Of a stretch of DNA of 64,000 bases, positions 13,172 to 49,337 are shown piece by piece. The stretch is from a virus. The stretch is taken from positions 195 through 64,194 of the IMG/VR virus record IMGVR_UViG_3300009415_000002. One strand, 5' to 3'. Below the pieces are notes generated by a model, which saw only the letters and a program-made list of their open reading frames with translations, made no database searches and was not told where the DNA came from. The translations under genes and the position numbers were made by a program. The first letter of the stretch is position 1. Each line of letters begins with the position of its first letter.

Positions 13172-16100
13172 TTACACACCATAGTTAGCTCTATCAATGT
13201 TGGCTTGCTTAGCATCACGAATCAATCCGTGAAATTCACAAACTGCAGTTGATAGTTCACCTAACAAGGCGTTATCAAACATATGACTATAACCACCCTC
13301 GTTAAAGAGGATAGCTAAAGGCTTAGCCACATACTGACCGCTAGAAGCATACTCAGCTTCTTCAATGAAGCCCATTTCATATGCAGCACGTTGAGAACCT
13401 TGTGAGATTCTACGAAGAGCACCGAACTTAACAGCTCCAGTTACTCCACCTTGCCACCACTTCTTAACTTCACCAAATCCTTCAAGCTTAGGCATAACAC
13501 GAGTTACGATGCGTGAGCGGATAAGTTGAGTGAAGACTTCTTCAGGAAGGTTAACACCTACAATCTCTTTGATAGCAGCTTGAAGAAGAATAGCTCCATC
13601 ACACCACTCCTCTTTAGGAGTGTTGAAACGAACATCAACTTGCTTCCAGTTGCCCATAGGAGACCAAACCATTTCAGATTCAGTGTCAGTGGATGCAGCG
13701 TTTACTAAGTTGAAGAACAACTCAGCATTTTTGGAATATCCAGATAGGCCTAGACCTTCATAGATAGCACGCCAAGCAATAAGGCTAGCATCAACAACGG
13801 TGTTGAAGCGAGCTTCATCAGGACCAACAGCACGGTCAGCAGCATCAAAGATAAGCTTAGAGCACATACCATAAGATACACCTACAGCAGACTTATAGTG
13901 CTTAGCTACACGAGCAGCGAAATCACCAAGATAAGCAGAAGTGATATAGACTTTCTCGTTAGTCTCAGGGTCTTTTAACTGAGAGTTAAGAAGACAAGCA
14001 TTACCACGAAGGGATTTCTTACCTTGCTTGTCTTTTTCAGAGATGAAGTCAATATAAGGAACGTTAGCACCATATAGATATTCATAACCAGCGATGCCCA
14101 TTTTAGAAGCATTGATTGCGATTACTTTATCAGTGGTGATTTCATAACCAGCAACAGTCTCAAGGTTAATGACAGCAATACCATCGCCATCAGAATCACC
14201 TTCATTAAGAGCATGCCATACTAGTGGGTCAACAACTACGTGAGCGATTCCGCAGATTTGCTCATCATCAGTCAACACAAGACGACCAGCGCCTAGGAAA
14301 GGCATTGGAGTGCGAGTGAAGCCAATATAATAGTTAACGAATGAATCCCAATCTTTAACGCCTAGAAGACGAACGATAGGACAGTTACGGTTAAGAATAA
14401 CTGTTGGGATTCCATCAGCACTGTGAAGCATAGGGTGGAAAGAAGTGCGGACTTTTCCATAGACTAAGTCACCAGAGCGAGTTGCTTTCTTAAGAACGTT
14501 ATTTGATTCAACTGCAGTGTTGATGATTTTGCTATAAGCACTGTTAAGCTTACCGACGATATCACCATCAAACTGGTTGACTCTATTGATGAATAAGTCA
14601 ACAATAAAGTTAACGATAGTCGCAGTCTCACGAGCAGCAGCACCACTAGCAGCACTGAAGCTACCATAGATAGCGACTACGTTAAGGTCAAGTTTGATAG
14701 ACTTAACATTAGCACTTTTGCCAATGAAGAACTTATATTCATTTTGACCAGCGAAGAAGTTAGCAATAGAAACTAGAAGCTTACGGTGTTTGATTCCGAT
14801 AGTTCCGTTAGGGAAGATAGTGCTACTAACTGCAGACATGTCTTCAGTGGTTGCATCAATAACACAAGGAGCTGTGCTAGTGTTACCAGCAAATTCATTA
14901 GCTAAGGTTAAGAAAGACTTAGTTTTATCAATAGACTCAGTGAATAGAGCATCACCAAGTTCTTTGTCTTGAATAGAGACTGCTGCAGCACTTTCAAGAG
15001 TGAAGCTGGACTTGGAAACAGACTCAAGAGCAGTGGAGATTTCCACGTCAAATACGAGCTGACCAAAGATTACGTCAATAGTCTCTTCGACTAGGACATA
15101 CTCATATCCATCAAAAGTTGTGCCTTCGCTAATAACTTTAACGCTATCAAAGAAGGAGTGGCCTTCTTCTGCATTACCAGCTTTAGCTTGCTTTTCAAAC
15201 ACAGACTTAGCCATAGTCATACGAATCTTAACATCATTAAAACGCTTGGATTCTTTCCATTCTTGAACAGCGTTATTTTCATCATAGAGATTAATAACAG
15301 AACCGTCAGCACCAACTAATTCACCGTTAGCGGTGTGAAGGTTGAACTCACCTTGGTCATTAGCGAACATCTCTAGGAGAGCGCCATGGCCTTTAGTGCA
15401 TTCGTTGTTAAGCATGATATCCCAGTGGTTGTTTTGACCAACGAACTCAACTTCATAAGGAAGAGTTGTGAACTTAGTGGCGAAACGACGAGTCTTAACC
15501 CACTGAGTTGTTTCAACAATTTCAACATTGATAGAGATTTCAATGGAGTTCTCATCATTAACAATATTACCAACAGTTCCACTAACAACACGAATATTAG
15601 CAGCATCAGAGCTATTACGAACAAGTTTGTGCTTAACACCATCAACAGAGACTTCAACAATAGTTGCTTTAGGAGCAAAGGTTTGACCTTTAGCAGCATC
15701 AATCTTCTCTTGGATTTTGTTAACAAGAGCAAGTTTGTTGTTAGCATGGTTCATGAATTTATTACCAAAGATGGAAAGAGTGAAAGACTCAGATTCTTTC
15801 TTACCAACATAATAAGTGATATAAGTTTCAGGATTGATAATACCAACACCGGAACCAAAACCTAACTTAGAGTTAGTGAATGCAACATCCATCATTTTGC
15901 CTTTAGTTTTAGCGACTTCACCAGATTGAAGAGCGAATCCAAAGTTAGATGCTACACGGTCATCAAGGTCAGCACAATCATAGTTATTAGCAGCACCACG
16001 GTTGATGAGCTTAGCAACTTTGTTTACATCATTAGGAGTGATGATGCGGTCTAGTTCACGGTTCCAACCAAGACCTGTGGCCTCAGCACCGTCATTAATA

Positions 16101-34933: not shown

Positions 34934-35219
34934 TATTTCAAAATACATGCTCGTATATAACATAACAGCATTGCCTGCTATTCTATATGCTTCAATGACA
35001 CCCGCTGACGAACCTTTAACATTTGATTCAGATAAATTAGAAATACCACCAGATCTAAATGGTATTCCTATAGAGTTAAGAATTAGTATATATAATCCAG
35101 AAGGTAAGTTAATAGAGTTAGCAAGTAATATGTTACCAGCCAACTCTGTAGTAATTGCTCAAACTGCACAACTCACTGGACTAAAGTTAGTAAAGAAGTT
35201 AATTGACAACTTAAGCTAA
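34926..35219 (+). CDS. Hypothetical protein
   Basis: 97 aa; converges on the giant gene with overlapping ends. Confidence 0.55.
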   Translation: MNNISKYMLVYNITALPAILYASMTPADEPLTFDSDKLEIPPDLNGIPIELRISIYNPEGKLIELASNMLPANSVVIAQTAQLTGLKLVKKLIDNLS

Positions 35220-38200
35220 CACATCAGTATAAATTGTCCCATCCATACTGGGTTCTACGTCTTGAGCTTCTTGTAAGTCAGCTAGATGAGCAAAGTTATC
35301 TGGATTGTAAGTAGAATCAGTCATAACCCAGTAATCACTTATTTCACTATTAGTACCGTCAGTCTCAGCAGCAATCTCTTCATAAGCTGCTTGTTGATTT
35401 CTTTGACGAGATATTCTCTCTGCTACACTAGCACTTAAGTTAGCTACAGGAGCAAAAGAGTCTAGTATATTCTTAACTCCTCCGTTTTGCATTCTAGCTG
35501 CCGTTTTCATAAACACTCCACTAATTAAAGTAGAACTAACAGCAGATATAATAGAGGCCCCTATATTACCAGCAAGCTGTTTACCTGCAGCGTATTTCTC
35601 CATGCCCATAGCACTTAAAGATGGATGAGCTTTCATACCCAAAACATTTCTTTCTATTTTCTGATTAATCCAAGGAGTAGCTACAGCATTAAAACTAGTA
35701 GATACTACTTCTTGAACAGCCATCTCCGCCACAGCCATGCCTATATTATCATCACCATGCCTAGCTAAAGCATTTTTAAATTTGAATACTCCTGTTAGAG
35801 CTTTAGCACCTGATACTTTTCTCTTATAAGCATTGGGATTAGGATCATCAATTGAACCTGCTCTAGCGTATTGAAAAGCTGTTACAGTAGCTCCACCTAA
35901 AGCTTGAAGCTGGTTATCATCAACATTACCTTCTGATATCATTCCACCAACACCAGTTAAAAGAATAGGAACTAAAACATCTAGTCCAGTAGAAACCTTG
36001 TTTTTAGACATAGCTCTAAGACCTGCATCTCCTACTTTATTTAGTACAGATCCTTTCTTAGTAACATCACTCATGTCCATATACATCTCTCTTGCCATCT
36101 TTTGTTGTCTGATGACCTGTTGATTTCTACGAGCAGCCTGATACTGAATATTGTCCTTAACCATCTTTTTACCTTCCATAGTGATTTGTTCATCACCAGG
36201 TAAAAAGTCTCTAAGAATTTTATCTACTTCCTCATCGTTATTAAATGCATACTCATATAAAGCTTCTCTACCCATCATCTCAGCACTAGCAGCTTGTTGA
36301 CCAGTAAGACTTCGTTCATTCATTTCTACAAAAGCATCTAATATATCATTCTCTACTCTTATTAATTTACCACTACCTTTGTACTCACTAGAATCCTTAA
36401 CTACTGTAAGAGACTCATCAGCTTCTTGATAAACAAATCTTTCATCAGCCTCGTCTATCATACGAGCATTAAACCCTTTCCAATCTTTAGTCTCATCAGA
36501 AGTAGCCCTACTCCATAGTTGACCTTTATCTTCTGTACCAACTAAGTTTTTATAAACTACTTTTTTAAGAATATAGTCTTGTTCTACTTTATCAGCAGTA
36601 GTAAAATCTTTACCGTCTACGCTAAGAACTTCTTTATTAGCATTAACAAGCTCACTAAGAACACCTCTGTACATTGCACTAAAGATTCCCATACCTTGTG
36701 CACCTAACTTCTGCTGAGAAGCAAGTTGAGCCATTGTAGTCATTAACTCAGAACCAGCCATGTCTCTAATATTATGAGACCCTTCTTCTCCTGGCATATT
36801 ACCAGTCTCTTGTGCATTAGCTACATTCTTCCTCATAAGTTCAGTAAGAGTAAAGTTTTCCATTCTTTCTCCATCTTTACCAAACAAAGGATCAATTTGT
36901 TGTCTTGTAGTTTCGTATACAGAATCAAACTGTAGTAAGTAGGTTTCAACACTTACTCCTTGCTTTCTTGCAACGTCAGTCAATTCTTTTTGATACTCAG
37001 AAGTTAATACTCCTTTGTCATCATAAGCACTATCTAAATCTAGCTTCAAATGCTGAGCTAAGGCTGATTTCTGATCTAAGTGAATATCAAATTTATCCCC
37101 TTCTATATTAAGATTAGACAAGTATTTTTTATTTAAATACTCTAACATCTCATGATCTTCAGACATAGGTTGCCCATTCTCAAATCTGTTAACTAAAGCA
37201 ACTTTAGAAACTTTGTGAATCTGTTTGTTCTGACTAGCAAGTTTTAGTTTTTGAGAAGCAGCAAAACTAGTCATAATTTCAGAACTTTGTTTATTAGAGT
37301 TATCCATATGATATGAAGTAACCATTGAAGCTACGTTTCTAGCAGTTTGATATCTAGCCACTGCCATTAGAGAATGACTATCAGCCGATATATCATCACG
37401 ACTACCAATAGATTTATAGTTAGGATCTCTAGCAGCTAACTTAGCATTAATCTGTCTAAACTCATAACTATTACCAACCTCTTTTCCTCCCAGGAATCTA
37501 GATTCATAATCCATTAAGTTCATGCCTTTGTTAGTAGATTGATTAATTAAATAATCCATATCCATAAGAGACTTAAGACCAGGTCCTGGACCTAGTTGAG
37601 AAGCCATACCATCAATAACGCTATCTCTTTGACGTTTAAGATCTTCATACTCAGCTCTATCTTTTTTACTTAAGTCAGCTATATCCCCAGATTCAAAAGC
37701 AGCAATCTGAGAAGACTTCTCGTTATATACTTTTGAGTTTTCCTGTAGAGAGCTCATCATATCTCCATCAGTTTTTAATTTGATGCTATCTCTTAATAAC
37801 TGGTGGATATTCTTCATAAAGCTTTGGGTACCTTCAGCATTACTAACAGCTTGTCTAGTGGTTTCTTGATATTGATTAAACTGTTCAGCATATATTTCTT
37901 TTGCTGCTTGAGCTTGAGTCACACCAGTTTTATTAGCATAATCTACAACTTCATTTCTACGATCTTCAGATAATCTACTTATATCAAAAGAATCTTCATC
38001 TTGGAAATAATGTTTTCTTACTGCTTGATGTAGTTCACTATCAGTGTCCATCATTGCTCTACCACTACTAATAGTAGGAGCATCTTGAAATGTACTACCA
38101 ATAATAGTGTTATAAGTTTTACCTAGGATTTCCCCACCAGCTTTACCCAACGTTTTAAGTACAATATCAAACACTGGCTCAGTCATATCCATACCCACGG

Positions 38201-41200
38201 CTTGACTAGTAAACTTAGATAAAGTATCAGCTTCTTGAGTTTTATTAAATATTTCTCCACCAATCCATTGACCTAAGAAAGCTCTTTGACCTGCTTTACG
38301 TTTCTCATCATCAGAAGCAACATTCTTAAGCATGTCTACATATCTAAGCATGTTATCTTGATCGTTAGCAAAGTTAGATAGTGTTCCAGCGTAAGCTTTA
38401 AGAGTAACAGAGTCTTCTCCTTCTGCTTGTAATGCTCTTAGAAAATCTACTTGGCCCTGTTTTTCAGATCCACTAGATACTTCTGCCTCTAATATTTCTA
38501 ATCTCTTAGATATTTGCTCTCTAACTAAAGCAACATTAGGTTGGGCAGTCTCTCCTTTAGCAGTATTAGTATTAGGATCTAACTTAAGTTTGTGTAAGAA
38601 CTCTATTCCTTCAGCAGGATCAGTGCCTTGGTATCCTAGTAAGGCATCCATAGCAGTATTTACAGCCATCATTTTTCCTGCTTGACCGTATAAGCCTTCT
38701 ATAATATCAGTACCTTGGCCCATTAGAGCATTAAGTTCATCAGCACCCATAGTACGACCACCAAAGCCAGTTATAGCTTTATCTTGATCATCAAATCTTT
38801 CTTCACCAGTAATAGCATCTCTTAACTGTTCTCCTTGTTCAACAAAGAATCTTTCATCCATTCCAAGATAACCAGCAACTTGCTTACGCATTCTTTCTGT
38901 CAAAAGTCTACTACCAGCTGCAGACTGTTCTTGTAGTTTTTGTTGAGCATATTTAAACTTAGCTTCTGCTTGCACTTTCTTTCTTCTAGACTTAGCATAC
39001 TCTTGTTGAAGAGTCTTACCTTCGTCTTCATTAGAAGCCCCCTCTGCAATTTGTTTACTATATGAATTAGATAAAGCGGTTTGTTTATCAACTTCTAATC
39101 TAGCTTCACTCATATACTTTTGGTAATCAGATGCTCGATTCATAACAGTGGTATAAGGGTCACCATCCCAGTCACCACCACCAAAGGTAACAATACCTAG
39201 AGAAGCCATCCAAGACCCTGTTTGACCTCTAGAAATATCGCTAGTCATCTTTGTAGTTTCTATACCTGTTTGACCTACTTGTATCTCACCAGAAAGTTGA
39301 GCCACCCTATTTAAAGCGTGAACTCCTTCCATCAATCTATAAGTATGTAAACGAGGATCTGTACCACCTGGAGTAGGAGAACGAAATACCTCTGCAAGCT
39401 CTAAATTACTTCTATCTAAATCTTCCATCTCCATACGAACATAACTAAAGAGATCTTCGTAATCTCCTATATTCATATGCTTTTCATTAAGATCCAATTT
39501 AAGACTTTCTAGCCTTTGAATAATAGTTTTAGTTCTTGTTTCATATTCACTATGAGCTGCTGTAATACGAGACTCTTGCTCTGAATCTGTTTTGACTTGA
39601 GTAGTGCCATCTTTGTTCTTGAGTTTAGATTGAGACTCTCTAGTCATAGAGAACTTTTTCATATCCTCCATTCTATTCTTATACATTTGAATAGTTTCGT
39701 TAATTTGCTTTTCCGCAAACTTCTTCTGGACTGCATCTCGACTACCTGAAGAACCAGACTTATTAAATGCTTCCCCTATTTCTTTAATAGCATTAACAAC
39801 ACTCTTTGTAGGATCTTCATAATCTGAAGTACCAGCAGCTTTAGTCTTACCTGTAAATAATGTATGTTCAGCTAACTGAGTACTTGTTTTACCAAGACCT
39901 TCAAAGATAGTTCCATCATTCATTATCATTCCTACTTCCTTAAAGCGAGCAACTTTTCTATTAAGATATCCTACTTGCTCACTACTTAAATGTTGTCTAG
40001 CAGGATTAATACTAGATAGCTCAATACGAGCCAACATAGCATCGTAGTTCATTACAGTAGCATGATATATAAATGCATTAGCAGGATCTAATCTGTTCTT
40101 TATACCTTCTTTATCAAAGTAGTTTATTCTCTCTGCTGCTTCGTTTCTAAGTTTTAGTATAGAGCTTTTTAAAGTATCATAACCTTTACGTCTATCATCT
40201 TGAGACAGTCCTTTAGCACTTTCATAAGCAACTACTCTCTCAGTAATATTAAGAGATTGTCTCTTTATCTGTTTAAACTCATCTCTATGTGCAGCATCAA
40301 TACCTTCTCTAAGAGCAGAAGCTTGTCTTCTGTAGAACTGACGAATCTTTCTAACATCGGTTAAATCATCATCTCTAATAACTTCACCATTTAAAAACTC
40401 TGTTTTATCTCTAGTGCGACGATTATCATATACAGTTTGAGCCATTTGAGAACCATCTACTTCCATAGCTACTTCTCTAGTGACTACTTTATATGTATCA
40501 GAATACTCAGTAGCTTCAGATATTGTATTAGTTTTTATTACAGTTCTATTAATTTCTCTTTCTCGACCTACAGTAGCTATATAAGCCTTAGTAGTATCTT
40601 CAACAATATCATCTGTGATAATACTTTTTATCTTAGCTGTCTCACCTGGTTTTCTAGTAGCCTTAGTAGTATCATCTTCTTCATAAAAGAATTCTCTTCT
40701 AGTTTGTTCTTCCTGATATTCAAAGACATCAAAAGCCTCAACTCTGTAATTAAGCTTATGTATTTGTGCCTCTACTTCTCTTATAGTAGAAGTTCTTTCA
40801 CCATCATGTACAACACTCTGTACTCTACGAGTTTTACCTTTAACCTTATTAAGAAGTTGAGACTCTTGATCTTCTGTTATAGCTCCCCTTTCTACAAGAG
40901 CACTTAAAGTTAGATTAGATTTAACATCATTTCTAGCCCAAAAATCAGGAGTATTCTTAGAGATATCTAGTTCTGCATCAGCATACTGTCTTAGTTCTGC
41001 AGAACTATCTACTAAGTATTTCTGCATATTTCTAATGTCTTCTTTATTAGCTGCCATCTCAGGTAAACTAACAAGACTTTCTAATTGATCATAAGCTCTT
41101 TGTAAAGTTGTAACTGTAGTAAATACATTATCACGTTGTACATCTTTACTCATACCAGAAGCACCCGCTACGTAACCTAACTTTCTTAAGTCATGTAACT

Positions 41201-44200
41201 GATAAATAGTATCTTTAACTTCTTTAAGATGCTTACTATTACTATTAGTTTCTACTGCTTTACTTAAAGATGAGAAGCTATTGTATAAACCTGAACCCAT
41301 TTCTATATAGACTCTTTCAACAGCACTGCCGGCATACTTGCGACTGCTTCTCATTGACCTCATATTCTGAGTTGTTTCTTTTAGAAGTGCAGTACGCTCT
41401 TCATAAACTTCTAATCCTAACTCCTGTTGTTTTGATACAGCCATAGCAGCAGAACCAAATGGCATTAAGTTGCTACCAATACCTGTACTTGTAAAACCTT
41501 GATATTTAACTTTACCAGCGTTGGCCTCTTGCATACGAGCACCAGCTACTGCTTTCTCAATTTCTACTTCCATAGTAGCTGCTGCCTCCATTACAGATTG
41601 TAAAGCTTTAGTCTCATCTGTAGTAAGAACAATACTTATACCTGTTTGAGCTCCTGCTCTTACTTTTTCAAAGGCTACGTTAGCTATATTACCTGGAGTA
41701 AAGATTGCAGTTAAAGCTTTATAGTTTTGTACTACGGGATCTACAAAGTCAGCATGCTGTGCACCTAAGTTTCTCATTATCTGAGCACTAGGAATAATAG
41801 TAGACATGCCTTTAGATTTATCTATATGTGCAACTACCTGACCATACTGTTGATCAAAAGAAATACCAGGTAATGTAATATACATACTTTCATTACTCAT
41901 ATTAGCTAAGTATTCTTTTGTATTAGTTTTACCTATTACTTTACTAGCATTTTGTTGATGAGAATCATTCATAGCCATAAGTCCTCTTTCAACATCATCT
42001 AGTTGTTGCATAGCAAACTCACGACCACCTTTTTCAATGATTCTTTGTACATGTCTTTCTCTATCAGTAGAAGTTAAGTACCCATACTTAGCCTTTACAA
42101 AGTTTTCAACCTTAGTACGACCATCATCTGTAATAGAGTTAGCTTTCCACTCATAAGCACCCTCAGTTATATCTTTGTTAATATTTGTGTACATATCAAC
42201 AAAATCCTGGGTATAAACCCCTGTTGTTCCACCTTGGTAAAAACCTAAGAACTTTCTCTTCTCAAAAGAACTAAATAAGTAATTAGATTCTGCTTCTACT
42301 AAGTTGCGGGCTTTTCTTGAACCAAATTGATTAGCGTTTTGAGTTCCATACATAGTTAAACCAGACTTCATATTAGAAGTCATAGCAGCTAAGCTAGCAA
42401 CAGTATGTTTAATCTTACCTAACTGACCTGTCTCTTTATATTGTTTAATATCACCTAGATAAGGAGTTATTAAATGCTGCCCTTCATGTCTAGCTACAGA
42501 TTGAGTACCAGTTGGATCCTTACTATAAGAGAATGTAATATCACTAAAGATAGAAACAGCAGTTATCTGAGTAGAGAGACCTTCAATCATCTGCATTAGC
42601 ATTTCTCTATTTTCATCATCTATATCAGTAGGAGCTCCTAATACATTTAACATTACAGCTCTGTAATCTGGGTTAGATATGTCTATATCTCCAGGTACTC
42701 TCATACTAGAACCACTAGCTGATAATTGATGCATAAAGTCAACAGCAGTAGTAATGATAGTCGCCTGTCTATCCATTTGACTATCAAAGTTAATAGATCC
42801 ATAAGCTGCTGCATTTTTAGCAGTAGGGTCTACCAAGCTTCTAACTGCATGTAGTAATTCATTAGATTGAGAACCATCACCTGCTAATACATTAGACAGC
42901 ATAGTACTAGTAATACCTCTAAGACCACCTACTGATATATCAGAGAATGCTGACTTAGAAGTTAAGCTTTCAAATAACAAATCAGAACTAATTTCAGATC
43001 TTGATCTACCGTACTTATCTTTAGCCATTGCTTTGTCAATACTACCATCCATACCTATTTGTACAGCAAGAGCAGCAGTAAGCTTTTGATAATGTTTTCC
43101 ATACTCACCTTTAGCCAAGCCTTCTATTAAAGCTTGTTGTAATTTACGGGCTTCTGCAGGTTCAGAGTTATAACCAGATATATCTTTTCCTTTTTTTCTA
43201 TCTTCAAAATAACCTTTCATATTCAAAGCTTCACCAGAAGCACTTGTAGTTATAAAACTACCTCCGAACTGAATAAGTAAAGCTCCTGCTACCTTTTTAG
43301 CTGCAGCAATATCCGCTTCACCTTTAGCTCCAAATAACTCATCTAACATAAAGTGAGATTTAGTTCCATCTTCACCAGTTCTTAGTGAGCGCATTATAGT
43401 AGCACCGTGACTCCAGAAGAAAGACTTGAAGTTATTAGAGTTATATAGTCCATGTACTGTAGATGATAAAGGAGTATAACCATAAGTACCGTCTTGGAGT
43501 TTAGTATAATCACTAGCCTCGTTTACAGTAGCTCCTAGTACACCGTCTTTTCTCATATCTAAGTAAGCTTTTAAAGAACCACCAACTTCATTAGCATACA
43601 TTTGCTGCTCTAAGTGCTGGAAAGTATTCATTTCTACTTCTCGTCTTTCACCATCTATGTGAGTCATAAATTTATTACGACCTGCAAAGTTAGCTACACC
43701 TTTAATTAATGCACCACTATCTGTACCTTCAACTCTTCGACCACTTCCTGGCATAACAGAACGTAATCTGTGGAACATTCCTACATATTCGTTGTTATCA
43801 AAATTACCACCTCTATGATAAGCATCCATTAAGTAGTCAATACTTTGTTCTCCACTACGTCTGTAAGTAGCCATTTCTGAAGTACCGAGAGTAGGAGAAC
43901 CAACTGGACTAAATGAGGTATTGTCAACAACATTTTTTATAGTAGACATATTACCTTTATGGTCAGCAACACCTACTATCTTCCAGTCTCCATCAATCTT
44001 TCTCTTTAGAACAGTAGAATTAGTATTAGGATCTTGAACAATTATGTCTCCTCTCTTTTGGAGAACCTCATAACCACCTTCACCAATCATTGAGCCTTTT
44101 ATACTCTGTTGTTGAGTTTCTATATAACCTTCTCTCATTCCTCTTGCCAAGACTCCTTCACCAGGTTCTAACTGCCCAGGTCTTTCTAACACTAAGTCAG

Positions 44201-47200
44201 GGTCATCTATATGCCATTCATTAGCAAGACGTCTATTGTAAGCACCTTTACTTGTGTATACAGAGCCGTATAAAGGGTTAGCAAGGAAAGTATCAGTATA
44301 CGTACCTCCAAGCTGTATAAGAGCCATAGAGTAGCGCATATGATCACTACCAGCTAACATCTTACCTAAGTTTAGATCTAAACTAGCTTTAAGAACTTCT
44401 ACTCTTAACAATTCCTCCTTCATTTCATCAGTAACAGAGTCACCAACAGTATCTTCTATATCTTTTCTAGTACGCATTAAGAAATTCATCTGTTGTTGAT
44501 TCATAACAGATTTAGTATTACCAGAGAACACAGCTCCTAAAGAAGAATGTGAATCAGCAAAAGCGTTTCTAGAGACAGTACCTATATTAGTAACTTGTCT
44601 AGCTAATCTTATAACTTCTATATGATCATCACCTAATATTTTTCTTTTAGCCTCAAGCTCTTTCATAAGAGCTTCTCCACGAGCTTGAAGACCCATTTTT
44701 CCATCACTACCTTTAAGTAGCTTTTCTCTATTTCTCTTAAGGTAATTATCAGTTAGCTGAGACATACTGTCACCAGTAGAATACTCACCATCTAAACTTC
44801 TTTCTGATACAGCTTGTGCAGCTACCCCAAATTGATAAAGAGGTCTAGCACCTAAAGCATTTTTTATACGCTGAGGCAACTGTGATACTTTCTTAGCGTC
44901 TCCAGTGTAAAACTGTAAAGCAGTATCTTGACCTTGGAATGTATTTTTTAATCCCTCTCTATAATGTTGAATTGCAATTTCAGCAGCATCTTTGTTAGTG
45001 ATATTACCTTGGGAATCTCTTCTAAAGAACATTTCCATTTGCTCGTCCTTAAGAAGCATTTGGCCTTCAGCATCTCTTGCAAACTCCCCATTACCATCTT
45101 GAGAGAAATAAGCATTGGCATGTACCATATTACCTATACCAACAGAAGACAGTACACGAAGATTATCTGCTGTACCCATTTGTCTAGCTTCTTGAGCAAA
45201 GAATACAGAGTCTAATGCATCATCATACTTATTCATAGAAGTAGACTTACTAGCGATACTTCTATATAAGACTGCATTAATATCTGTAGTAGGTCTATAA
45301 GCTAAAGGAGTAATACGAGCAAACATTCCTACATTCTTTATAGAACTAATAACTTGCCCATTTTCATCTCGTGGTTGTTCTCCAAATAAATACTGAACAC
45401 TATCTTTATCATTTCTATTACCAGCAAACCCCATCATTACTGTACGGTAGACAGCCTGTTGTCCACCATAAGTTCTTCCCTCTCTACCCTGTAAGAAAGA
45501 ATCAAATAGACTAGCTTGAAACTGTTTAAACCTATTAACTTCTAATGCTTCTCCAGCATTTCCTCTGACGCTATTCATCATGTCTGAAGCTAAAGAAGGA
45601 GATAGTAAAGCTAAGGTTTCTAAATGCTTAGCAACAGAACCATCCATGATTCTTTGTCTTTCTTCATAATCTCCACTAGCAGCCACTCTTCTTAAAGCAC
45701 CTACTAAACCTTCCTGACCTTCTTGACTACCAGAGGCAGCTAGACCAAAGAATGCTTTATGTAATCCTAAAGTAGTATCTATCTCTGAACTACCCAGTTT
45801 CTTCTGACCAAATAGAGACACACTAATATCACCTATTAACTTTTCTGTCTCTAAGTTAAAGGCTTCTTTACCATCTTCTGTTCTACTTACACTGATATTA
45901 GATATGAAGTTTTGCATAGAGCTTACTTTAGCACCAGTTTCAGTGTTCATAGTATCACCATAACCAGTAAGCATCTTGGACATATAACTAGTAGCTATAT
46001 TTCTTCTATCTGTTTGACTAGTAATTGATGCGTACTTAGCTTGTTGAGATTCTACTCCAAAACGACTATCTGCTTCACCTAATATAGTTGCAAATAGTTG
46101 AGGAACTATATCTAGAGCACTCATGTAAGCACTTTGTCCAGACTGAAGATCTACTCTTCCATCTTCCAACCCTGACTTAAAATCATCATCATAATTATTT
46201 CTACCTAGAACACTAATAGCACTTCCACTATTATTAGCAAATATACCATTACCTACTATTTGACTTTTATCTACAAAGTAAACAAATGCACCTGCATCAC
46301 CATCATCAGTACGAGCGTTAAATAGGTTACTACCTCTATTAGGTCCATTAAGTACAGACAACTCAAATTGTAGTTTAGGTAATCTTGAAGTAGATGCTAA
46401 ATATCCTTTTGCTCCTAATGCCTGAGTTAGATCTAAACTTACATTAATAGAAGTAAGACCACTACCACTTGTGTCGCCGTATCTATCAACAATCTTAAAG
46501 GCCGATTCAGACACACCTAAAGTCTTGCGCATTTGCTCTAGTCTATTTTTAAGAATAACTAGTCCACCTGTATTAATATTACGCTGCCATAGAGGTTCAG
46601 TTCTAATAGCATTGTAGTTAGGATTAGTAATCTCGTTATTACCTAGTTGATTCCAAGTAGTGCTTAAATGCTGCATTGCTAGATTTAATTCATACCTTTC
46701 CTCTTCTTGGTCTAAACTAAAATCATTATTAAGAGGAGTAAACTCTGGATCGTTATCCATATAATAAGCATCATATCTTTGAGCCACTCTAGCTTGATGA
46801 GCTGATGCTCTACTTAGACTAGTAGATACATTTCTGTCTCCAAGCATCAATCCTATTTCAGTATTAGTTCTATCACCATCTCCAGGAATATACATAGGCG
46901 TACCCTGTTTTGATGTACCACCTTCTATACCCATAGAATATTGACCCATGTTAGAAGACCCCATGTAGTAAGATACTAATTTAGGATCTACGCCCTTATT
47001 GTTATATTCCATTAATCCAAAGCTCTTAACGTGCTGTCTAGGAGCTTTAGCCATAGTAATATTATCTGAAGCCATACCAATAATTTGCTTCAAATCAGAC
47101 TCACTAAATCCAGCTTCTTTTGTGAAACCTTGTACTCTAAGTAAAGTCATCATCTTACCCATTTGAGTAGAGTAAGAACTATCACTTGTAGAAGTAGACG

Positions 47201-49337
47201 GGTTAAACAAAGAGTACCCAGCCATTAGACCTAGATTTCTACCATACTTATTATAGTTAGATTTAAGTCTTTCACTCCCACTCTTTTCTATCTTTTGAAC
47301 AAGAGGATTAATAATTTGTTCTCTATAGTTTTTAGCATCAACAGTAACAGATGCTTTTCCGGTTATTAATAAGTCAAATAATTTATCTTGAGCTTGATAA
47401 TATCTTTGAGTTTGGAAGTTTTCTTTTCCGTAAGCACTAGAAACTTCTTTACCCATTTCTCCAGCTAAAGCAATGTTTTTAGAAGTATCACCTAACTGAA
47501 GCATAAAAGCCTGATCAAGCACCATAAACATATGAGTACTTGTACCAGTGGTAGTTTCTTTTGCGTACCCACCTCTAGTATTACCACCAACTACATCAAA
47601 TCTTTTCTCATGAGCATAGTTCAGAGTGTTCTTTAAGTGCTGCCAAATATCTCCAGCGAATCCTACCTGCATACCTCTAGATTGAGAAAGAATAGGAGTA
47701 GCGGTACTACCTCCTTTTCTACCTACATCATTTCGGCTATAAGTTAATTCCTCGTTAGAGATACTTTCTATTTGTCTATATAGTAAAGACTGAGTTACAT
47801 CTCCAGTTTTAAGAGCTACATCTCTTTGTTCAGTCCAAGTATCTCCTCTACCTTGTCTAGTATTAAGACGAGCAGCATTTAAACTTCTATCATCTTTATA
47901 TTTATTAACAACAAACCGCATAGTTTCAAAGTTGCTACCAGCTTGGTTAACACTATTACCTACAGGTCCTGTTAAGTTTTGAGTACCTATCCCTGCTACA
48001 TTATCTGTTAAGTAAAGTTTGGGGTGGAACTTCTTATCTCTAAACTGTATATTTAATTTAAAGTAATCCTTAATATCAACTCCAGTAATACCCATTTGTT
48101 GTAAAGTACCTTGAAGTTGTTCTTGTATAGCCTGTAGCTTTAAAGCTTCAATTAAGTTAGGACCTAGTATATTGTAATTAGTTGAACCTACACCGTACCT
48201 TCCTTCTTCAGTGGAAGTACCATCTAAGTCTCTTTGACGAGGATAAGCTAAAACAAAATCTACTTCAAATGCTTTGTTATTACCTGATGCTACGTTTTCT
48301 AATACTCTACGTTGAATTTTATCTATTAAAGCAGCACTGATAGCCTCGTTCTGAAACTGGAAGGATTGTATACTAATTTTATTTTCTGCTGTATTCACTA
48401 AATCCACAAAATTAGCAATACCAGCTTTATCTACATAACCACCTTGAGTAGCTGCACTACTTCTATTACCTAAATTATTATTAATGAGTTCAAGAGCGCT
48501 AACTAAATCTTTTGGATCAGTTTTTTGTTGAAGAGCACTAGCATGTATATCTGCAGAGTTAGCTAGTCTATTACGTTCACCTACTGTACCATTAACTAAA
48601 GTATTTCTTATAGTTCTACGAGCACTTGATAAACCACTACCTGTCATAGATAATTGATTTATCATTGACTCTCCATGGAATCTTTGAAATTCAACATCTA
48701 ATCTATCTACAATATTTTGACTATCGTATAAAGATCTATTCACATTATCTTTAAGAACTCTAGCTGCAGCAGTAGCAGCCATGTCATCTGGATTAGTGTT
48801 AGCCAATTGAGTTGATAAAGCAGAAGTACCATCTTCTAAGTTTTCATAGGGTGCAAATACATTATCGTATAATGCTCTTGAACCAAAAAAATCTTCATCA
48901 TCTCCTCCACCAAAACCACCTCCACTTAATATTTCACCAGTAAATCTATTAAAGGCATTACTAGTACCAAATCTAAAAGGAGATGAATTTACTTCAGCAA
49001 ACTTACTAGCGTTCATTACAGTTTCATCTGCAATAGTTGCTCCTAGTCTACTATTAAAAGCTCTATTGTGTCTTGCTTGCTGAACTGTACGATTATCACT
49101 ATCAGAATCTATACCTAATTCATTATTCCAATCTCTTTCAAGTTCTCTAACAGAGTTTTCCATTTGAGGAAGGAACTCATCTCTATCAGCAAATGCACGG
49201 CCATCTATGCCTTCATTTAACACATTAATCATTGTGTGAAATCTGACAGCATTACCTAAAGCAGTACGTTGATACTGATTAGTTCCCAAGGTACTTTTAA
49301 GGGAATCTATTCTATGTTGTGATCCTTCTCTTGACAT
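35211..49337 (-). CDS. Giant multidomain protein: PLD (two HKD) domain + two-barrel RNA polymerase + helical C-terminus; putative virion RNAP / tape-measure or ejection protein
   Basis: HPKLYLTD..GTQN (aa ~438), HVK..GSSN (aa ~769); MALIQLGGTYTDTFLANP (~1670), GRRVEG..IKGV (~1865), GLYNSNNFKS (~1960), GKVKYQG (~2607), FRSP (~3317), GGGDWDGD (~3388); hydrophobic segments near C-terminus. Confidence 0.8.
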   Translation of the reverse strand: MSREGSQHRIDSLKSTLGTNQYQRTALGNAVRFHTMINVLNEGIDGRAFADRDEFLPQMENSVRELERDWNNELGIDSDSDNRTVQQARHNRAFNSRLGATIADETVMNASKFAEVNSSPFRFGTSNAFNRFTGEILSGGGFGGGDDEDFFGSRALYDNVFAPYENLEDGTSALSTQLANTNPDDMAATAAARVLKDNVNRSLYDSQNIVDRLDVEFQRFHGESMINQLSMTGSGLSSARRTIRNTLVNGTVGERNRLANSADIHASALQQKTDPKDLVSALELINNNLGNRSSAATQGGYVDKAGIANFVDLVNTAENKISIQSFQFQNEAISAALIDKIQRRVLENVASGNNKAFEVDFVLAYPRQRDLDGTSTEEGRYGVGSTNYNILGPNLIEALKLQAIQEQLQGTLQQMGITGVDIKDYFKLNIQFRDKKFHPKLYLTDNVAGIGTQNLTGPVGNSVNQAGSNFETMRFVVNKYKDDRSLNAARLNTRQGRGDTWTEQRDVALKTGDVTQSLLYRQIESISNEELTYSRNDVGRKGGSTATPILSQSRGMQVGFAGDIWQHLKNTLNYAHEKRFDVVGGNTRGGYAKETTTGTSTHMFMVLDQAFMLQLGDTSKNIALAGEMGKEVSSAYGKENFQTQRYYQAQDKLFDLLITGKASVTVDAKNYREQIINPLVQKIEKSGSERLKSNYNKYGRNLGLMAGYSLFNPSTSTSDSSYSTQMGKMMTLLRVQGFTKEAGFSESDLKQIIGMASDNITMAKAPRQHVKSFGLMEYNNKGVDPKLVSYYMGSSNMGQYSMGIEGGTSKQGTPMYIPGDGDRTNTEIGLMLGDRNVSTSLSRASAHQARVAQRYDAYYMDNDPEFTPLNNDFSLDQEEERYELNLAMQHLSTTWNQLGNNEITNPNYNAIRTEPLWQRNINTGGLVILKNRLEQMRKTLGVSESAFKIVDRYGDTSGSGLTSINVSLDLTQALGAKGYLASTSRLPKLQFELSVLNGPNRGSNLFNARTDDGDAGAFVYFVDKSQIVGNGIFANNSGSAISVLGRNNYDDDFKSGLEDGRVDLQSGQSAYMSALDIVPQLFATILGEADSRFGVESQQAKYASITSQTDRRNIATSYMSKMLTGYGDTMNTETGAKVSSMQNFISNISVSRTEDGKEAFNLETEKLIGDISVSLFGQKKLGSSEIDTTLGLHKAFFGLAASGSQEGQEGLVGALRRVAASGDYEERQRIMDGSVAKHLETLALLSPSLASDMMNSVRGNAGEALEVNRFKQFQASLFDSFLQGREGRTYGGQQAVYRTVMMGFAGNRNDKDSVQYLFGEQPRDENGQVISSIKNVGMFARITPLAYRPTTDINAVLYRSIASKSTSMNKYDDALDSVFFAQEARQMGTADNLRVLSSVGIGNMVHANAYFSQDGNGEFARDAEGQMLLKDEQMEMFFRRDSQGNITNKDAAEIAIQHYREGLKNTFQGQDTALQFYTGDAKKVSQLPQRIKNALGARPLYQFGVAAQAVSERSLDGEYSTGDSMSQLTDNYLKRNREKLLKGSDGKMGLQARGEALMKELEAKRKILGDDHIEVIRLARQVTNIGTVSRNAFADSHSSLGAVFSGNTKSVMNQQQMNFLMRTRKDIEDTVGDSVTDEMKEELLRVEVLKASLDLNLGKMLAGSDHMRYSMALIQLGGTYTDTFLANPLYGSVYTSKGAYNRRLANEWHIDDPDLVLERPGQLEPGEGVLARGMREGYIETQQQSIKGSMIGEGGYEVLQKRGDIIVQDPNTNSTVLKRKIDGDWKIVGVADHKGNMSTIKNVVDNTSFSPVGSPTLGTSEMATYRRSGEQSIDYLMDAYHRGGNFDNNEYVGMFHRLRSVMPGSGRRVEGTDSGALIKGVANFAGRNKFMTHIDGERREVEMNTFQHLEQQMYANEVGGSLKAYLDMRKDGVLGATVNEASDYTKLQDGTYGYTPLSSTVHGLYNSNNFKSFFWSHGATIMRSLRTGEDGTKSHFMLDELFGAKGEADIAAAKKVAGALLIQFGGSFITTSASGEALNMKGYFEDRKKGKDISGYNSEPAEARKLQQALIEGLAKGEYGKHYQKLTAALAVQIGMDGSIDKAMAKDKYGRSRSEISSDLLFESLTSKSAFSDISVGGLRGITSTMLSNVLAGDGSQSNELLHAVRSLVDPTAKNAAAYGSINFDSQMDRQATIITTAVDFMHQLSASGSSMRVPGDIDISNPDYRAVMLNVLGAPTDIDDENREMLMQMIEGLSTQITAVSIFSDITFSYSKDPTGTQSVARHEGQHLITPYLGDIKQYKETGQLGKIKHTVASLAAMTSNMKSGLTMYGTQNANQFGSRKARNLVEAESNYLFSSFEKRKFLGFYQGGTTGVYTQDFVDMYTNINKDITEGAYEWKANSITDDGRTKVENFVKAKYGYLTSTDRERHVQRIIEKGGREFAMQQLDDVERGLMAMNDSHQQNASKVIGKTNTKEYLANMSNESMYITLPGISFDQQYGQVVAHIDKSKGMSTIIPSAQIMRNLGAQHADFVDPVVQNYKALTAIFTPGNIANVAFEKVRAGAQTGISIVLTTDETKALQSVMEAAATMEVEIEKAVAGARMQEANAGKVKYQGFTSTGIGSNLMPFGSAAMAVSKQQELGLEVYEERTALLKETTQNMRSMRSSRKYAGSAVERVYIEMGSGLYNSFSSLSKAVETNSNSKHLKEVKDTIYQLHDLRKLGYVAGASGMSKDVQRDNVFTTVTTLQRAYDQLESLVSLPEMAANKEDIRNMQKYLVDSSAELRQYADAELDISKNTPDFWARNDVKSNLTLSALVERGAITEDQESQLLNKVKGKTRRVQSVVHDGERTSTIREVEAQIHKLNYRVEAFDVFEYQEEQTRREFFYEEDDTTKATRKPGETAKIKSIITDDIVEDTTKAYIATVGREREINRTVIKTNTISEATEYSDTYKVVTREVAMEVDGSQMAQTVYDNRRTRDKTEFLNGEVIRDDDLTDVRKIRQFYRRQASALREGIDAAHRDEFKQIKRQSLNITERVVAYESAKGLSQDDRRKGYDTLKSSILKLRNEAAERINYFDKEGIKNRLDPANAFIYHATVMNYDAMLARIELSSINPARQHLSSEQVGYLNRKVARFKEVGMIMNDGTIFEGLGKTSTQLAEHTLFTGKTKAAGTSDYEDPTKSVVNAIKEIGEAFNKSGSSGSRDAVQKKFAEKQINETIQMYKNRMEDMKKFSMTRESQSKLKNKDGTTQVKTDSEQESRITAAHSEYETRTKTIIQRLESLKLDLNEKHMNIGDYEDLFSYVRMEMEDLDRSNLELAEVFRSPTPGGTDPRLHTYRLMEGVHALNRVAQLSGEIQVGQTGIETTKMTSDISRGQTGSWMASLGIVTFGGGDWDGDPYTTVMNRASDYQKYMSEARLEVDKQTALSNSYSKQIAEGASNEDEGKTLQQEYAKSRRKKVQAEAKFKYAQQKLQEQSAAGSRLLTERMRKQVAGYLGMDERFFVEQGEQLRDAITGEERFDDQDKAITGFGGRTMGADELNALMGQGTDIIEGLYGQAGKMMAVNTAMDALLGYQGTDPAEGIEFLHKLKLDPNTNTAKGETAQPNVALVREQISKRLEILEAEVSSGSEKQGQVDFLRALQAEGEDSVTLKAYAGTLSNFANDQDNMLRYVDMLKNVASDDEKRKAGQRAFLGQWIGGEIFNKTQEADTLSKFTSQAVGMDMTEPVFDIVLKTLGKAGGEILGKTYNTIIGSTFQDAPTISSGRAMMDTDSELHQAVRKHYFQDEDSFDISRLSEDRRNEVVDYANKTGVTQAQAAKEIYAEQFNQYQETTRQAVSNAEGTQSFMKNIHQLLRDSIKLKTDGDMMSSLQENSKVYNEKSSQIAAFESGDIADLSKKDRAEYEDLKRQRDSVIDGMASQLGPGPGLKSLMDMDYLINQSTNKGMNLMDYESRFLGGKEVGNSYEFRQINAKLAARDPNYKSIGSRDDISADSHSLMAVARYQTARNVASMVTSYHMDNSNKQSSEIMTSFAASQKLKLASQNKQIHKVSKVALVNRFENGQPMSEDHEMLEYLNKKYLSNLNIEGDKFDIHLDQKSALAQHLKLDLDSAYDDKGVLTSEYQKELTDVARKQGVSVETYLLQFDSVYETTRQQIDPLFGKDGERMENFTLTELMRKNVANAQETGNMPGEEGSHNIRDMAGSELMTTMAQLASQQKLGAQGMGIFSAMYRGVLSELVNANKEVLSVDGKDFTTADKVEQDYILKKVVYKNLVGTEDKGQLWSRATSDETKDWKGFNARMIDEADERFVYQEADESLTVVKDSSEYKGSGKLIRVENDILDAFVEMNERSLTGQQAASAEMMGREALYEYAFNNDEEVDKILRDFLPGDEQITMEGKKMVKDNIQYQAARRNQQVIRQQKMAREMYMDMSDVTKKGSVLNKVGDAGLRAMSKNKVSTGLDVLVPILLTGVGGMISEGNVDDNQLQALGGATVTAFQYARAGSIDDPNPNAYKRKVSGAKALTGVFKFKNALARHGDDNIGMAVAEMAVQEVVSTSFNAVATPWINQKIERNVLGMKAHPSLSAMGMEKYAAGKQLAGNIGASIISAVSSTLISGVFMKTAARMQNGGVKNILDSFAPVANLSASVAERISRQRNQQAAYEEIAAETDGTNSEISDYWVMTDSTYNPDNFAHLADLQEAQDVEPSMDGTIYTDVLA

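What the first reader, a model, noticed from the sequence alone, without database searches (positions are those of the whole stretch)
35211..49337. 4708-aa protein hides a complete two-barrel RNA polymerase: putative virion RNAP
Seen: the motifs of a double-psi-beta-barrel RNAP occur in the correct order in one chain: beta-like MALIQLGGTYTDTFLANP (~44280-44330), GRRVEG..IKGV (~43695-43745), GLYNSNNFKS (~43420-43455); beta-prime-like GKVKYQG (~41497-41517), FRSP (~39375-39389) and the metal-binding GDWDGD (39159-39176). Established: Thermus phage P23-45 fuses a virion RNAP to its ~5000-aa tape measure, and crAss-like phages carry single-chain virion RNAPs. Inference: this is a packaged RNAP, here in a contractile-tailed phage and with a large (~700 aa) insertion between the beta-prime motifs. 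The ~1300-aa helical C-terminus with hydrophobic segments could be the tape-measure or membrane-channel part (about 200 nm at ~0.15 nm per residue).
Basis: partly seen in the sequence, partly recalled or inferred. Interest (0 to 1): 0.95.

Follow-up and report, generated by a model that had tools for sequence, protein, structure and literature searches.

The report
Giant phage protein hiding RNA polymerase
A 4708-residue, cysteine-free protein of a contractile-tailed phage very probably contains a fused two-barrel RNA polymerase that is carried in the virus particle. The cultured Microcystis phage Ma-LMM01, so far thought to depend on the host polymerase, has the same protein.

Summary
It belongs to a rare family: 39 representatives among 1.84 billion proteins, all 1,869-5,372 aa.

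- **Catalytic residues.** The eight residues universal to two-barrel RNA polymerases are present in the canonical order and conserved family-wide: D1682; R1868, K1879; R3319, P3321; D3389, D3391, D3393.
- **Beta-prime-like half.** It has six strands in the right order around RxP and DxDGD. Fold searches were swamped by helices, so this fold is unconfirmed.
- **Insertion.** The roughly 700-aa insertion is a variable cargo site; relatives carry ADP-ribosyltransferases or a metallopeptidase there.
- **Packaging is inferred.** The family has 2 cysteines in about 224,000 residues, the gene abuts the portal, and Ma-LMM01 gp080 is not transcribed at 1 h.
- **Context.** Ma-LMM01 gp080 and gp064 are homologues of this protein and of the window's second RNAP candidate.
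- **Open.** A tape-measure role is unresolved.

Verdict: a new family of single-chain virion RNAP candidates.

The parts
35211..49337 (-). Giant ORF of 4708 aa (P0001) with no cysteine. Member of a rare family of 1,869-6,490-aa phage proteins that includes Microcystis phage Ma-LMM01 gp080.
46818..48470 (-). N-terminal conserved module (residues about 290-840) with two HKD-type motifs of the phospholipase D superfamily. HKD1 is H438-x-K440-x4-D445...GTQN454 (47976-48026). HKD2 is H769-x-K771...GSSN796 (46950-47033).
   Evidence: H438, K440, H769 and K771 are invariant family-wide, apart from one misaligned fragment. A profile search against PDB gave only PLD-superfamily proteins as top hits, via this motif, at E 0.004-0.03. 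UniProt names the Ma-LMM01 homologue 'PLD phosphodiesterase domain-containing protein'. Pfam PLDc was not hit.
42504..44912 (-). Beta/Rpb2-like half of the polymerase (residues about 1476-2278), including double-psi barrel B with D1682, R1868, K1879, K1971 and H1977, and a beta-rich insert at about 1729-1904.
41445..41516 (-). First two strands of beta-prime-like barrel A (residues 2608-2631, GKVKYQGFTSTGIGS...), the counterpart of beta-prime GKRVDYSGRSVI (switch 2 region).
   Evidence: G2614 is invariant and K2609 mostly conserved. The AF2 model shows strands at 2614-2622 and 2629-2631. With the insertion removed, hhalign aligns this motif to GKRVDYSGRS.
39408..41420 (-). Lineage-variable insertion inside barrel A (residues about 2640-3310). 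It comprises a four-helix bundle at 2661-2795, a disordered stretch at about 2833-2980, and then a helical region.
39141..39398 (-). Catalytic part of barrel A (residues 3314-3399): a strand ending in R3319-S-P3321, two further strands, then G-D3389-W-D3391-G-D3393 followed by the last strand.
   Evidence: R3319 and the three Asp are invariant in all members covering the region. Six strands lie in DPBB order in the AF2 model. hhalign aligns this segment to the bacterial beta-prime motif NADFDGDQ at E 0.004, or E 0.002 with the insertion removed, and to the P0055 family at E 0.006. Pfam RdRP PF05183 is the most recurrent weak hit: 4 of 49 members, best E 1e-3. Fold searches were inconclusive.
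38073..38165 (-). Very conserved segment LKTLGKAGGEILGKTYNTIIGSTFQDAP (residues 3725-3755), about 335 residues after DxDGD. It is a candidate bridge-helix or funnel element; this is inference only.
   Evidence: The block L3730-T3744 is invariant (apart from I3737 and T3741) in the 17-sequence alignment and still recognisable in Ma-LMM01 gp080. It is modelled as helices at low pLDDT.
35496..35993 (-). C-terminal region with two hydrophobic segments (residues 4449-4472 and 4588-4614), which are candidate membrane-inserting helices.
   Evidence: Kyte-Doolittle 19-residue windows peak at 1.57 and 1.74, the only peaks above 1.3 in the protein. The region is conserved.
13172..17512 (-). Companion gene: a 1446-aa candidate non-virion single-chain two-barrel RNAP (P0055). 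Motifs: GKVRTSF 14438-14458, FTRTPMP 14300-14320, GDSDGDG 14180-14200.
   Evidence: Its homologue in Ma-LMM01 is gp064, next to the early genes. It co-occurs with the giant gene in a complete 252-kb relative. Pfam and PDB sequence searches were negative.

Best explanation
The gene encodes a giant multi-domain protein of a Ma-LMM01-like myovirus. Its middle part (about residues 1476-3400, probably to about 3760) is a single-chain RNA polymerase of the two-double-psi-barrel type. A beta/Rpb2-like half is followed by a beta-prime/Rpb1-like half.

In that reading, barrel B supplies D1682, R1868 and K1879, and barrel A supplies R3319, P3321 and the Mg-binding D3389-x-D3391-G-D3393. A PLD-type HKD module (a nuclease or phospholipase) sits in front. 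A variable cargo-accepting insertion sits inside barrel A. A helical tail with two hydrophobic segments follows.

Most likely mechanism (inferred):
1. The protein is made at middle or late times and packed into the particle next to the portal.
2. It is pushed unfolded through the tail with the DNA; the absence of cysteine would suit passage through the periplasm.
3. It refolds and transcribes the first phage genes independently of the host polymerase.
4. Those genes include, or are followed by, the 1446-aa second polymerase (13172-17512), which takes over.

Shown here: the motifs, their family-wide conservation, the RNAP-like fold of the beta-like half, the variable cargo site, the absence of cysteine, the synteny and the homology to Ma-LMM01 gp080. 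Inferred: the barrel A fold, enzymatic activity, packaging, ejection and division of labour.
For: Family and residues:
- Only 39 representatives exist among 1.84e9 proteins, all giant.
- The eight residues defined as universal for two-barrel RNAPs (PMC2919709) are present in canonical order and conserved to about 15% identity.

Beta-like half:
- The AF2 model of 1455-2650 has pLDDT 82.4.
- About 37 of the top 50 Foldseek hits are Rpb2/beta chains.
- All 50 second-look rows are RNAP second-largest subunits with about 270 residues aligned.
- BFVD gives giant-virus RNAP beta subunits.

Barrel A:
- Six strands lie in DPBB order, with RxP ending strand 3 and DxDGD before strand 6.
- hhalign against beta-prime gives E 0.002-0.004, anchored on GK..Y.G and DxDGD.
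- There are weak Pfam RdRP hits.

Packaging and ejection:
- The family has 2 Cys in about 224,000 residues, against 0.7% in the other window ORFs. The proven virion RNAP family of crAss gp66 has 0.08%.
- ADP-ribosyltransferase and peptidase cargo is inserted in relatives.
- The gene is adjacent and divergent to the portal-capsid-sheath module, here and in relatives.
- Ma-LMM01 gp080 has no transcripts at 1 h, while the early genes gp054-063 are already on.

Companion polymerase: the candidate is conserved with the giant gene.
Against: - No sequence library recognises an RNAP at significance (Pfam, PHROGs, PDB).
- Barrel A was not recovered by any fold search, and its model is only moderately confident (pLDDT 64-87 locally).
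- P3321 is replaced by A or S in some distant members.
- No bridge helix or trigger loop was identified.
- There are no virion proteomics for any member.
- The published Ma-LMM01 transcriptome was interpreted as fully dependent on host sigma-70.
- The residue-level mapping of D1682, R1868 and K1879 onto Rpb2 D837, K979 and K987 comes from order and conservation, not from a superposition.
Confidence: 0.65

Rival explanations
1. It is a two-barrel polymerase but is not packaged. The giant protein would work inside the infected cell, for example as a middle or late transcriptase or an RNA-dependent polymerase, and its position near the portal would be incidental.
For: There are no proteomic data. 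Ma-LMM01 gp080 is transcribed with the bulk 'middle' class. The weak Pfam hits are to the RdRP family.
Against: A second, ordinary-sized polymerase candidate with 16 cysteines already exists for intracellular work. Near-total exclusion of cysteine over about 224,000 residues, hydrophobic C-terminal segments and inserted host-modifying enzymes are hard to explain for a purely cytoplasmic enzyme. The synteny with the head module is conserved.
Confidence: 0.13
2. It is a tape-measure fusion like P23-45 gp96. The helical C-terminal 1000-1300 residues would lie in the tail tube and set tail length, and the polymerase would be delivered as part of the tape measure.
For: The only tape-measure-like candidate in the tail module of relatives is 623-749 aa. 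That would span about 95-110 nm at 0.15 nm per residue (my estimate), whereas MaMV-DH01 has a 260-nm tail. No PF10145 tape-measure match was found in five related records. The C-terminal part (3500-end) is a nearly constant 1186-1285 aa across the close homologues. Hydrophobic segments lie near the C-terminus. An earlier scan note proposes a frameshifted chaperone-like pair next to the gene (untested).
Against: The gene is on the opposite strand beside the portal, not between tube and baseplate, in every genome seen. The C-terminus holds strongly conserved non-repetitive motifs rather than tape-like repeats. The polymerase is central rather than N-terminal, and the protein is not similar to gp96.
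Confidence: 0.15
3. There is no polymerase. The protein would be a structural, inner-body or ejection protein, its acidic motif would bind metal for another purpose, and the RNAP-like matches would be chance resemblances of a large beta-rich domain.
Against: Chance does not explain eight catalytic residues in the right order staying conserved at 15% identity. Nor does it explain why independent searches (Foldseek PDB, the Foldseek-free VIA search, BFVD) all put RNAP second-largest subunits on top out of 48,000-350,000 chains.
Confidence: 0.07

Closest known systems
Cellular and giant-virus multisubunit RNAP catalytic subunits (beta/Rpb2 and beta-prime/Rpb1; vaccinia Rpo132, ASFV RNAP chain B) and their fused derivatives
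   Same: Beta-then-beta-prime order. All eight universal active-site residues. Barrel B is interrupted by a large beta-rich insert, as with the wall/flap. A GK..Y.G switch-2-like motif sits before barrel A. An insert lies inside barrel A at the place where cellular enzymes also carry one. These are the best structural matches.
   Different: It is one chain embedded in a 4708-aa protein. No sequence similarity is detectable beyond the motifs. There are no zinc-binding cysteines at all. The insert in barrel A is about 700 aa and carries cargo in relatives. R-to-D spacing in barrel A is 70 residues rather than about 35.
Thermus phage P23-45 gp96, a tape-measure-fused virion RNAP (Chaban et al. 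2024, PMC10770324)
   Same: A giant (about 5000 aa) phage protein with a hidden single-chain two-barrel RNAP. FR[NS]P and G.D[FW]DGD motifs. No cysteine in the polymerase part. It is paired with a second, non-virion single-chain RNAP.
   Different: In gp96 the RNAP is N-terminal and the gene sits in the tape-measure position of a siphovirus. Here the RNAP is central, the gene is beside the portal of a myovirus, and an HKD module precedes it. hhalign found no relationship.
crAss-like phage phi14:2 gp66 virion RNAP (PDB 6VR4)
   Same: A large single-chain two-barrel RNAP that the phi14:2 record annotates from MS/MS proteomics. Strong cysteine depletion. Relatives carry extra fused enzymatic domains.
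   Different: gp66 is 2180 aa, from a podovirus, and related to QDE-1. Its motif is DFDID rather than DxDGD. A profile comparison with 70 gp66 homologues found nothing. Structural matches here favour Rpb2/beta rather than QDE-1/gp66.
Coliphage N4 giant virion RNAP (about 3500 aa)
   Same: The concept is the same: a giant polymerase packed in the capsid and ejected to start transcription, working with ejection proteins.
   Different: The N4 enzyme is a T7-like right-hand polymerase and is unrelated in fold.
Polyvalent proteins of phages and conjugative elements (Iyer et al. 2017, as cited in PMC7824862)
   Same: Very large injected proteins that string together variable enzymatic modules such as ADP-ribosyltransferases and peptidases.
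   Different: Here the variable modules are inserted inside the catalytic barrel of a conserved polymerase core rather than strung end to end.

Membership tests
Two-barrel (double-psi beta-barrel) RNA polymerase superfamily | DxDxD Mg-binding triad in barrel A (Rpb1 D481, D483, D485) | tested here: met
   D3389, D3391 and D3393 are invariant in every member covering the region. hhalign aligns them to NADFDGD at E 0.002-0.004.
Two-barrel (double-psi beta-barrel) RNA polymerase superfamily | R-x-P upstream in barrel A (Rpb1 R446 and P448) | tested here: met
   R3319-S-P3321 is present. R is invariant. P is P in the window protein and most members, and A or S in some distant ones.
Two-barrel (double-psi beta-barrel) RNA polymerase superfamily | One Asp and two basic residues in barrel B (Rpb2 D837, K979, K987), placed N-terminal to barrel A | tested here: met
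   D1682, R1868 and K1879 (also K1971) are invariant apart from one misaligned fragment. They lie in the segment that fold searches match to Rpb2/beta. Residue-by-residue equivalence is inferred from order, not from a superposition.
Two-barrel (double-psi beta-barrel) RNA polymerase superfamily | Barrel B has the double-psi fold within an Rpb2/beta-like hybrid-binding region | tested here: met
   [not shown]
Two-barrel (double-psi beta-barrel) RNA polymerase superfamily | Barrel A has the double-psi fold | tested here: inconclusive
   Six strands lie in the expected order around RxP and DxDGD. All fold searches of the 1196-residue model were dominated by helical bundles.
Two-barrel (double-psi beta-barrel) RNA polymerase superfamily | Bridge helix and trigger loop after barrel A | tested here: inconclusive
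   Only candidates were found: 3482-3500 and the highly conserved 3725-3755. There was no match.
Two-barrel (double-psi beta-barrel) RNA polymerase superfamily | Template-dependent RNA synthesis | not testable with these tools
   This needs a biochemical assay.
Virion-packaged (ejected) phage RNAP | Protein present in purified particles and active before phage protein synthesis | not testable with these tools
   Only indirect evidence is available: the absence of cysteine, cargo domains, synteny with the portal, and gp080 not transcribed at 1 h.
crAss-like gp66 vRNAP family | Detectable homology to gp66 and QDE-1-type barrels | tested here: not met
   hhalign of three family sub-profiles against 70 gp66 homologues gave E 0.3-0.95 and wrong regions. 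gp66 has DFDID.
P23-45 gp96-type tape-measure-fused vRNAP | Gene in the tape-measure position of the tail module, with the RNAP at the N-terminus | tested here: not met
   The gene is divergent from the portal and outside the tail module. The RNAP is central. There was no profile match to gp96.
Phospholipase D (HKD) superfamily (N-terminal module) | Two HxK(x)4D(x)6G[ST]xN motifs in one chain | tested here: met
   H438/K440/D445/GTQN454 is canonical. H769/K771...GSSN796 is the second copy, with a non-canonical Asp position. His and Lys are invariant family-wide, apart from one misaligned fragment. UniProt names gp080 a PLD phosphodiesterase domain protein.
Phospholipase D (HKD) superfamily (N-terminal module) | Significant profile or fold match to PLD domains | tested here: inconclusive
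   The PDB profile search has PLD-superfamily proteins on top, but only at E 0.004-0.03 over about 25 residues. Pfam PLDc was not hit. The region was not folded.
Phage tail tape measure protein | Recognisable tape-measure domain, or the position between tube/chaperones and baseplate | tested here: not met
   There was no Pfam tape-measure hit in the protein. PF10145 was absent from five related records. The gene position is wrong. Function was not tested.

The most novel reading that the evidence does not exclude
Ma-LMM01-type myoviruses (Fukuivirus and uncultured relatives up to about 280 kb) would run a host-independent, two-polymerase transcription cascade. It would be started by an ejected 3000-6500-aa combined protein made of an HKD nuclease or phospholipase, a fused beta/beta-prime polymerase structurally closer to cellular and giant-virus enzymes than to the YonO/QDE-1/crAss clade, a slot inside the catalytic barrel that accepts host-modifying enzymes, and a membrane-inserting tail. 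This would be a fourth, independent solution for a virion RNAP. It would overturn the published view that Ma-LMM01 relies on host sigma-70 throughout.
Probability: 0.4. Interest if true: 0.88.

Novelty: new variant of a known kind. Interest (0 to 1): 0.8.

Why it matters
Virion-delivered two-barrel RNA polymerases are known from only a few systems: the phiKZ-like multisubunit enzymes, crAss-like gp66 and P23-45 gp96. This would add a structurally distinct family in contractile-tailed phages, and it differs in three ways.
- The polymerase is buried in the middle of a 3000-6500-aa chain.
- Cysteine is almost completely excluded.
- Effector enzymes are inserted into the catalytic barrel itself.

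It is directly testable, because the family has cultured members (Ma-LMM01, MaMV-DC and MaMV-DH01, infecting bloom-forming Microcystis). In those phages the proteins are annotated only as hypothetical or 'PLD domain' proteins. The published transcriptome was puzzling: three temporal classes, no phage sigma factor, and no change in host transcription. It was explained by host sigma-70 alone (PMC5780444). A phage-borne polymerase pair would explain that pattern more simply.

The family also bears on how fused beta/beta-prime polymerases evolved.

Tried and rejected
Searches that found nothing useful:
- blastn and tblastn of the polymerase region against 50,697 phage records gave no match.
- Pfam on the whole protein gave nothing. 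PHROGs gave only the unknown family phrog_31006.
- phmmer and profile searches of both barrel regions against PDB sequences returned only coiled-coil noise.
- hhalign against single-sequence gp96 was negative, as was hhalign against 70 crAss gp66 homologues.
- hhalign of the barrel B profile against bacterial beta was negative.
- ESM Atlas feature search gave chance-level 'tape measure' hits at 0.79.
- Foldseek on PDB and AFDB Swiss-Prot, the ESM Atlas shape search and both VIA searches of the 2595-3790 model returned only helical bundles.
- A Pfam scan of ten distant members around DxDGD gave nothing beyond a 0.2 hit to vRNAP_dom.

Ideas rejected:
- An HExxH metalloprotease motif at 2284-2288 is not conserved in distant members.
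- GMREGY..K at 1733-1747 as a bridge helix is rejected because the model shows a strand there.

Not possible:
- The 282-kb contig of P0003 could not be searched because it is not held.

Full report
**Observation**

The window is most of a 65.4-kb IMG/VR viral contig that CheckV estimates as 39% complete. The minus-strand ORF 35211-49337 is open for 4708 codons. They are residues 1670-1687, 1866-1881, 1963-1972, 2608-2614, 3318-3321 and 3388-3393. The phage has a contractile tail. A Mu-type portal (50279-51868), a major head protein (56715-58013) and a tail sheath (62942-64000) lie on the plus strand, diverging from the giant gene.

**Family**

Standard libraries are silent. Pfam gives nothing. 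PHROGs gives only an unknown 3562-position family. PDB sequence and profile searches return only coiled-coil noise.

- A word-indexed search found 16 homologues of 4379-6490 aa at 29-69% identity.
- An exhaustive profile search of 1.84 billion cluster representatives found only 39 proteins. All are giant, at 1869-5372 aa.
- The whole length is conserved except residues about 2650-3000.
- In a 53-sequence alignment reaching about 15% identity, the following are invariant or nearly so: Q1675, G1678, Y/F1680, D1682; R1868, E1870, K1879; K1971, H1977; G2614; R3319; D3389, D3391, D3393. Two HxK motifs (H438/K440 and H769/K771) are conserved as well.

**Test against the definition of a two-barrel polymerase**

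Ruprich-Robert and Thuriaux (PMC2919709) define eight residues shared by every two-barrel RNAP. In Rpb2 these are D837, K979 and K987. In Rpb1 they are R446, P448, D481, D483 and D485.

The giant protein has a conserved counterpart for each, in the same order:
- D1682
- R1868 and K1879
- R3319-x-P3321
- D3389-x-D3391-x-D3393

GKVKYQGF resembles the beta-prime switch-2 strand GKRVDYSGRS. The Asp-to-basic distance in barrel B is 186 residues, and a beta-rich insert lies in between. That recalls cellular enzymes rather than QDE-1.

**Structure**

Two AlphaFold2 jobs were run on alignments of 49-52 family members.

*Model of 1455-2650 (pLDDT 82.4, pTM 0.74).*
- Foldseek against PDB gave no hit below E 0.04. 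Even so, about 37 of the top 50 hits are second-largest RNAP subunits: Pol II, III, IV and V chain B, archaeal RpoB, poxvirus Rpo132, and bacterial and plastid beta.
- BFVD returned the Ma-LMM01 homologue at E 4e-34, followed by giant-virus RNAP beta subunits.

*Model of 2595-3790 (pLDDT 69.6).*
- It shows six strands: 2614-2622, 2629-2631, 3314-3319 (ending at R3319), 3332-3336, 3374-3378 and 3394-3399 (just after DWDGD). This is the strand count and motif placement of barrel A.
- Every fold search was captured by the helical parts, above all a four-helix bundle at 2661-2795.
- The barrel A fold is therefore inferred, not confirmed.

*Profile comparisons.*
- The DxDGD segment aligns to bacterial beta-prime NADFDGDQ at E 0.004.
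- With the insertion columns removed, the alignment covers 143 columns at E 0.002, anchored on both GK..Y.G and DxDGD.
- The same segment aligns to the companion protein's NEGDSDGDG at E 0.006.
- Pfam RdRP is the most recurrent weak hit among 49 members.
- There is no link to P23-45 gp96 or to crAss gp66.

**The insertion**

The stretch between the two halves of barrel A is lineage-specific. The 2595-3790 segment is only 650-750 aa in distant members and about 2800-2950 aa in P0004 and P0005. In relatives it carries two ADP-ribosyltransferase domains, a DUF6782 metallopeptidase or a GrpE-like domain. Cellular and jumbo-phage beta-prime barrels also carry lineage-specific inserts at this position (PMC7824862). 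This is a familiar site used to an unusual degree.

**Other modules**

Residues about 290-840 carry a canonical HKD motif, HPKLYLTD..GTQN, and a second HxK...GSSN.
- A family profile against PDB put only PLD-superfamily proteins on top: the poxvirus virion nicking-joining enzyme and the PLD3 and PLD4 exonucleases. E-values were marginal.
- UniProt's automatic name for the Ma-LMM01 homologue is 'PLD phosphodiesterase domain-containing protein'.

The C-terminus has the only two strongly hydrophobic segments, 4449-4472 and 4588-4614.

**Evidence bearing on packaging**

- The protein has no cysteine. The 54 family members have 2 cysteines in about 224,000 residues, against 0.7% in 17 other ORFs of the window. 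The companion polymerase candidate alone has 16.
- The virion RNAP family of crAss gp66 is also depleted, at 0.08%. The gp96 polymerase part has none.
- The synteny is conserved: the giant gene is divergent from portal, capsid and sheath. This holds in a 282-kb metagenomic relative and in cultured Microcystis phages.

**Cultured relatives**

Ma-LMM01 gp080 (3562 aa, annotated 'hypothetical protein') is a family member with all the motifs. The window's 1446-aa ORF (13172-17512) carries GKVRTSF, FTRTPMP and NEGDSDGDG. Its homologue is Ma-LMM01 gp064, which lies immediately upstream of the early genes gp054-063. The pair also co-occurs in a complete 252-kb relative.

Morimoto et al. (PMC5780444) concluded that Ma-LMM01 has no transcription factors of its own and relies on host sigma-70 in all phases. 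They also found that host transcription barely changes. Their supplementary table lists, at the four successive sampling points (taken here as 0, 1, 3 and 6 h):
- gp080: 0, 0, 7.3 and 8.5
- gp064: 0, 1.6, 7.5 and 8.0
- early gene gp063: 1, 7.9, 11.9 and 12.6

So gp080 is not made early. This is what one expects of a protein that acts early only if it arrives with the particle. No held paper links Ma-LMM01 to two-barrel polymerases.

**Tape-measure question**

This is unresolved.
- Against: the gene is outside the tail module in every genome seen, and its C-terminus is motif-rich rather than repetitive.
- For: the only tape-measure-like candidate after the tube gene in relatives is 623-749 aa. 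MaMV-DH01 has a 260-nm tail. No Pfam tape-measure domain was found in five related records.

**Verdict**

The two-barrel polymerase reading is well supported for the beta-like half. For the catalytic half it is supported by motifs, strand order and weak profile matches. Packaging and ejection are plausible inferences from several independent indirect features. The closest structural relatives are cellular and giant-virus Rpb2/beta subunits, not the crAss/QDE-1 or gp96 lineages. I therefore file it as a new variant (a new family) within the known kind 'phage-encoded, probably virion-borne two-barrel RNAP'.

Noticed in passing
window 35211-49337; family P0001-P0056: Cysteine is almost completely excluded. 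The 4708-aa protein has none, and 54 family members total 2 in about 224,000 residues. Neighbouring ORFs have 0.7%. crAss gp66 homologues are also depleted, at 0.08%.
   Followed up: yes
window 13172-17512 (-): A 1446-aa ORF with beta-prime-like motifs (GKVRTSF, FTRTPMP, NEGDSDGDG) and 16 cysteines is a candidate non-virion single-chain RNAP. Its homologue is Ma-LMM01 gp064, next to that phage's early genes. Its family of 28 proteins has no Pfam annotation.
   Followed up: partly
P0005:2650-4600; P0009:2600-3450; P0012:2610-3150; P0004:2650-4750: Homologues carry host-modifying or other domains inside the polymerase's barrel A insertion. These are two ADP-ribosyltransferase domains, a DUF6782 metallopeptidase and a GrpE-like segment.
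   Followed up: partly
[not shown]
   Followed up: no
window 26777-28387 (-): A full-length CTP synthase (CTP_synth_N E 6e-115 plus a GATase domain) is encoded by the phage. It is an auxiliary nucleotide-metabolism gene.
   Followed up: no
window 25582-26451 (+): An HNH or homing-endonuclease-like gene lies on the opposite strand within the early region.
   Followed up: no
L025:7272-7552 (Ma-LMM01 43271-43551): Six and a half copies of a 42-bp tandem repeat are annotated between Ma-LMM01 gp064 (the RNAP candidate) and the early gene block gp063-gp054. This is a possible early promoter or regulatory array.
   Followed up: no
P0110-P0197 (crAss gp66 homologues): Many crAss-like virion RNAP homologues of 2600-3500 aa carry fused helicase (PF13604, PF13245, PF05970) or other domains. 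Accretion of extra enzymes on virion RNAPs may therefore be general.
   Followed up: no
L020:5120-7369 (G001); L026:27680-29551 (MaMV-DH01 ORF115): The only tape-measure-position gene after the tube in relatives encodes 623-749 aa (phrog_34291, unknown function). That looks short for the reported 260-nm tail of MaMV-DH01.
   Followed up: partly
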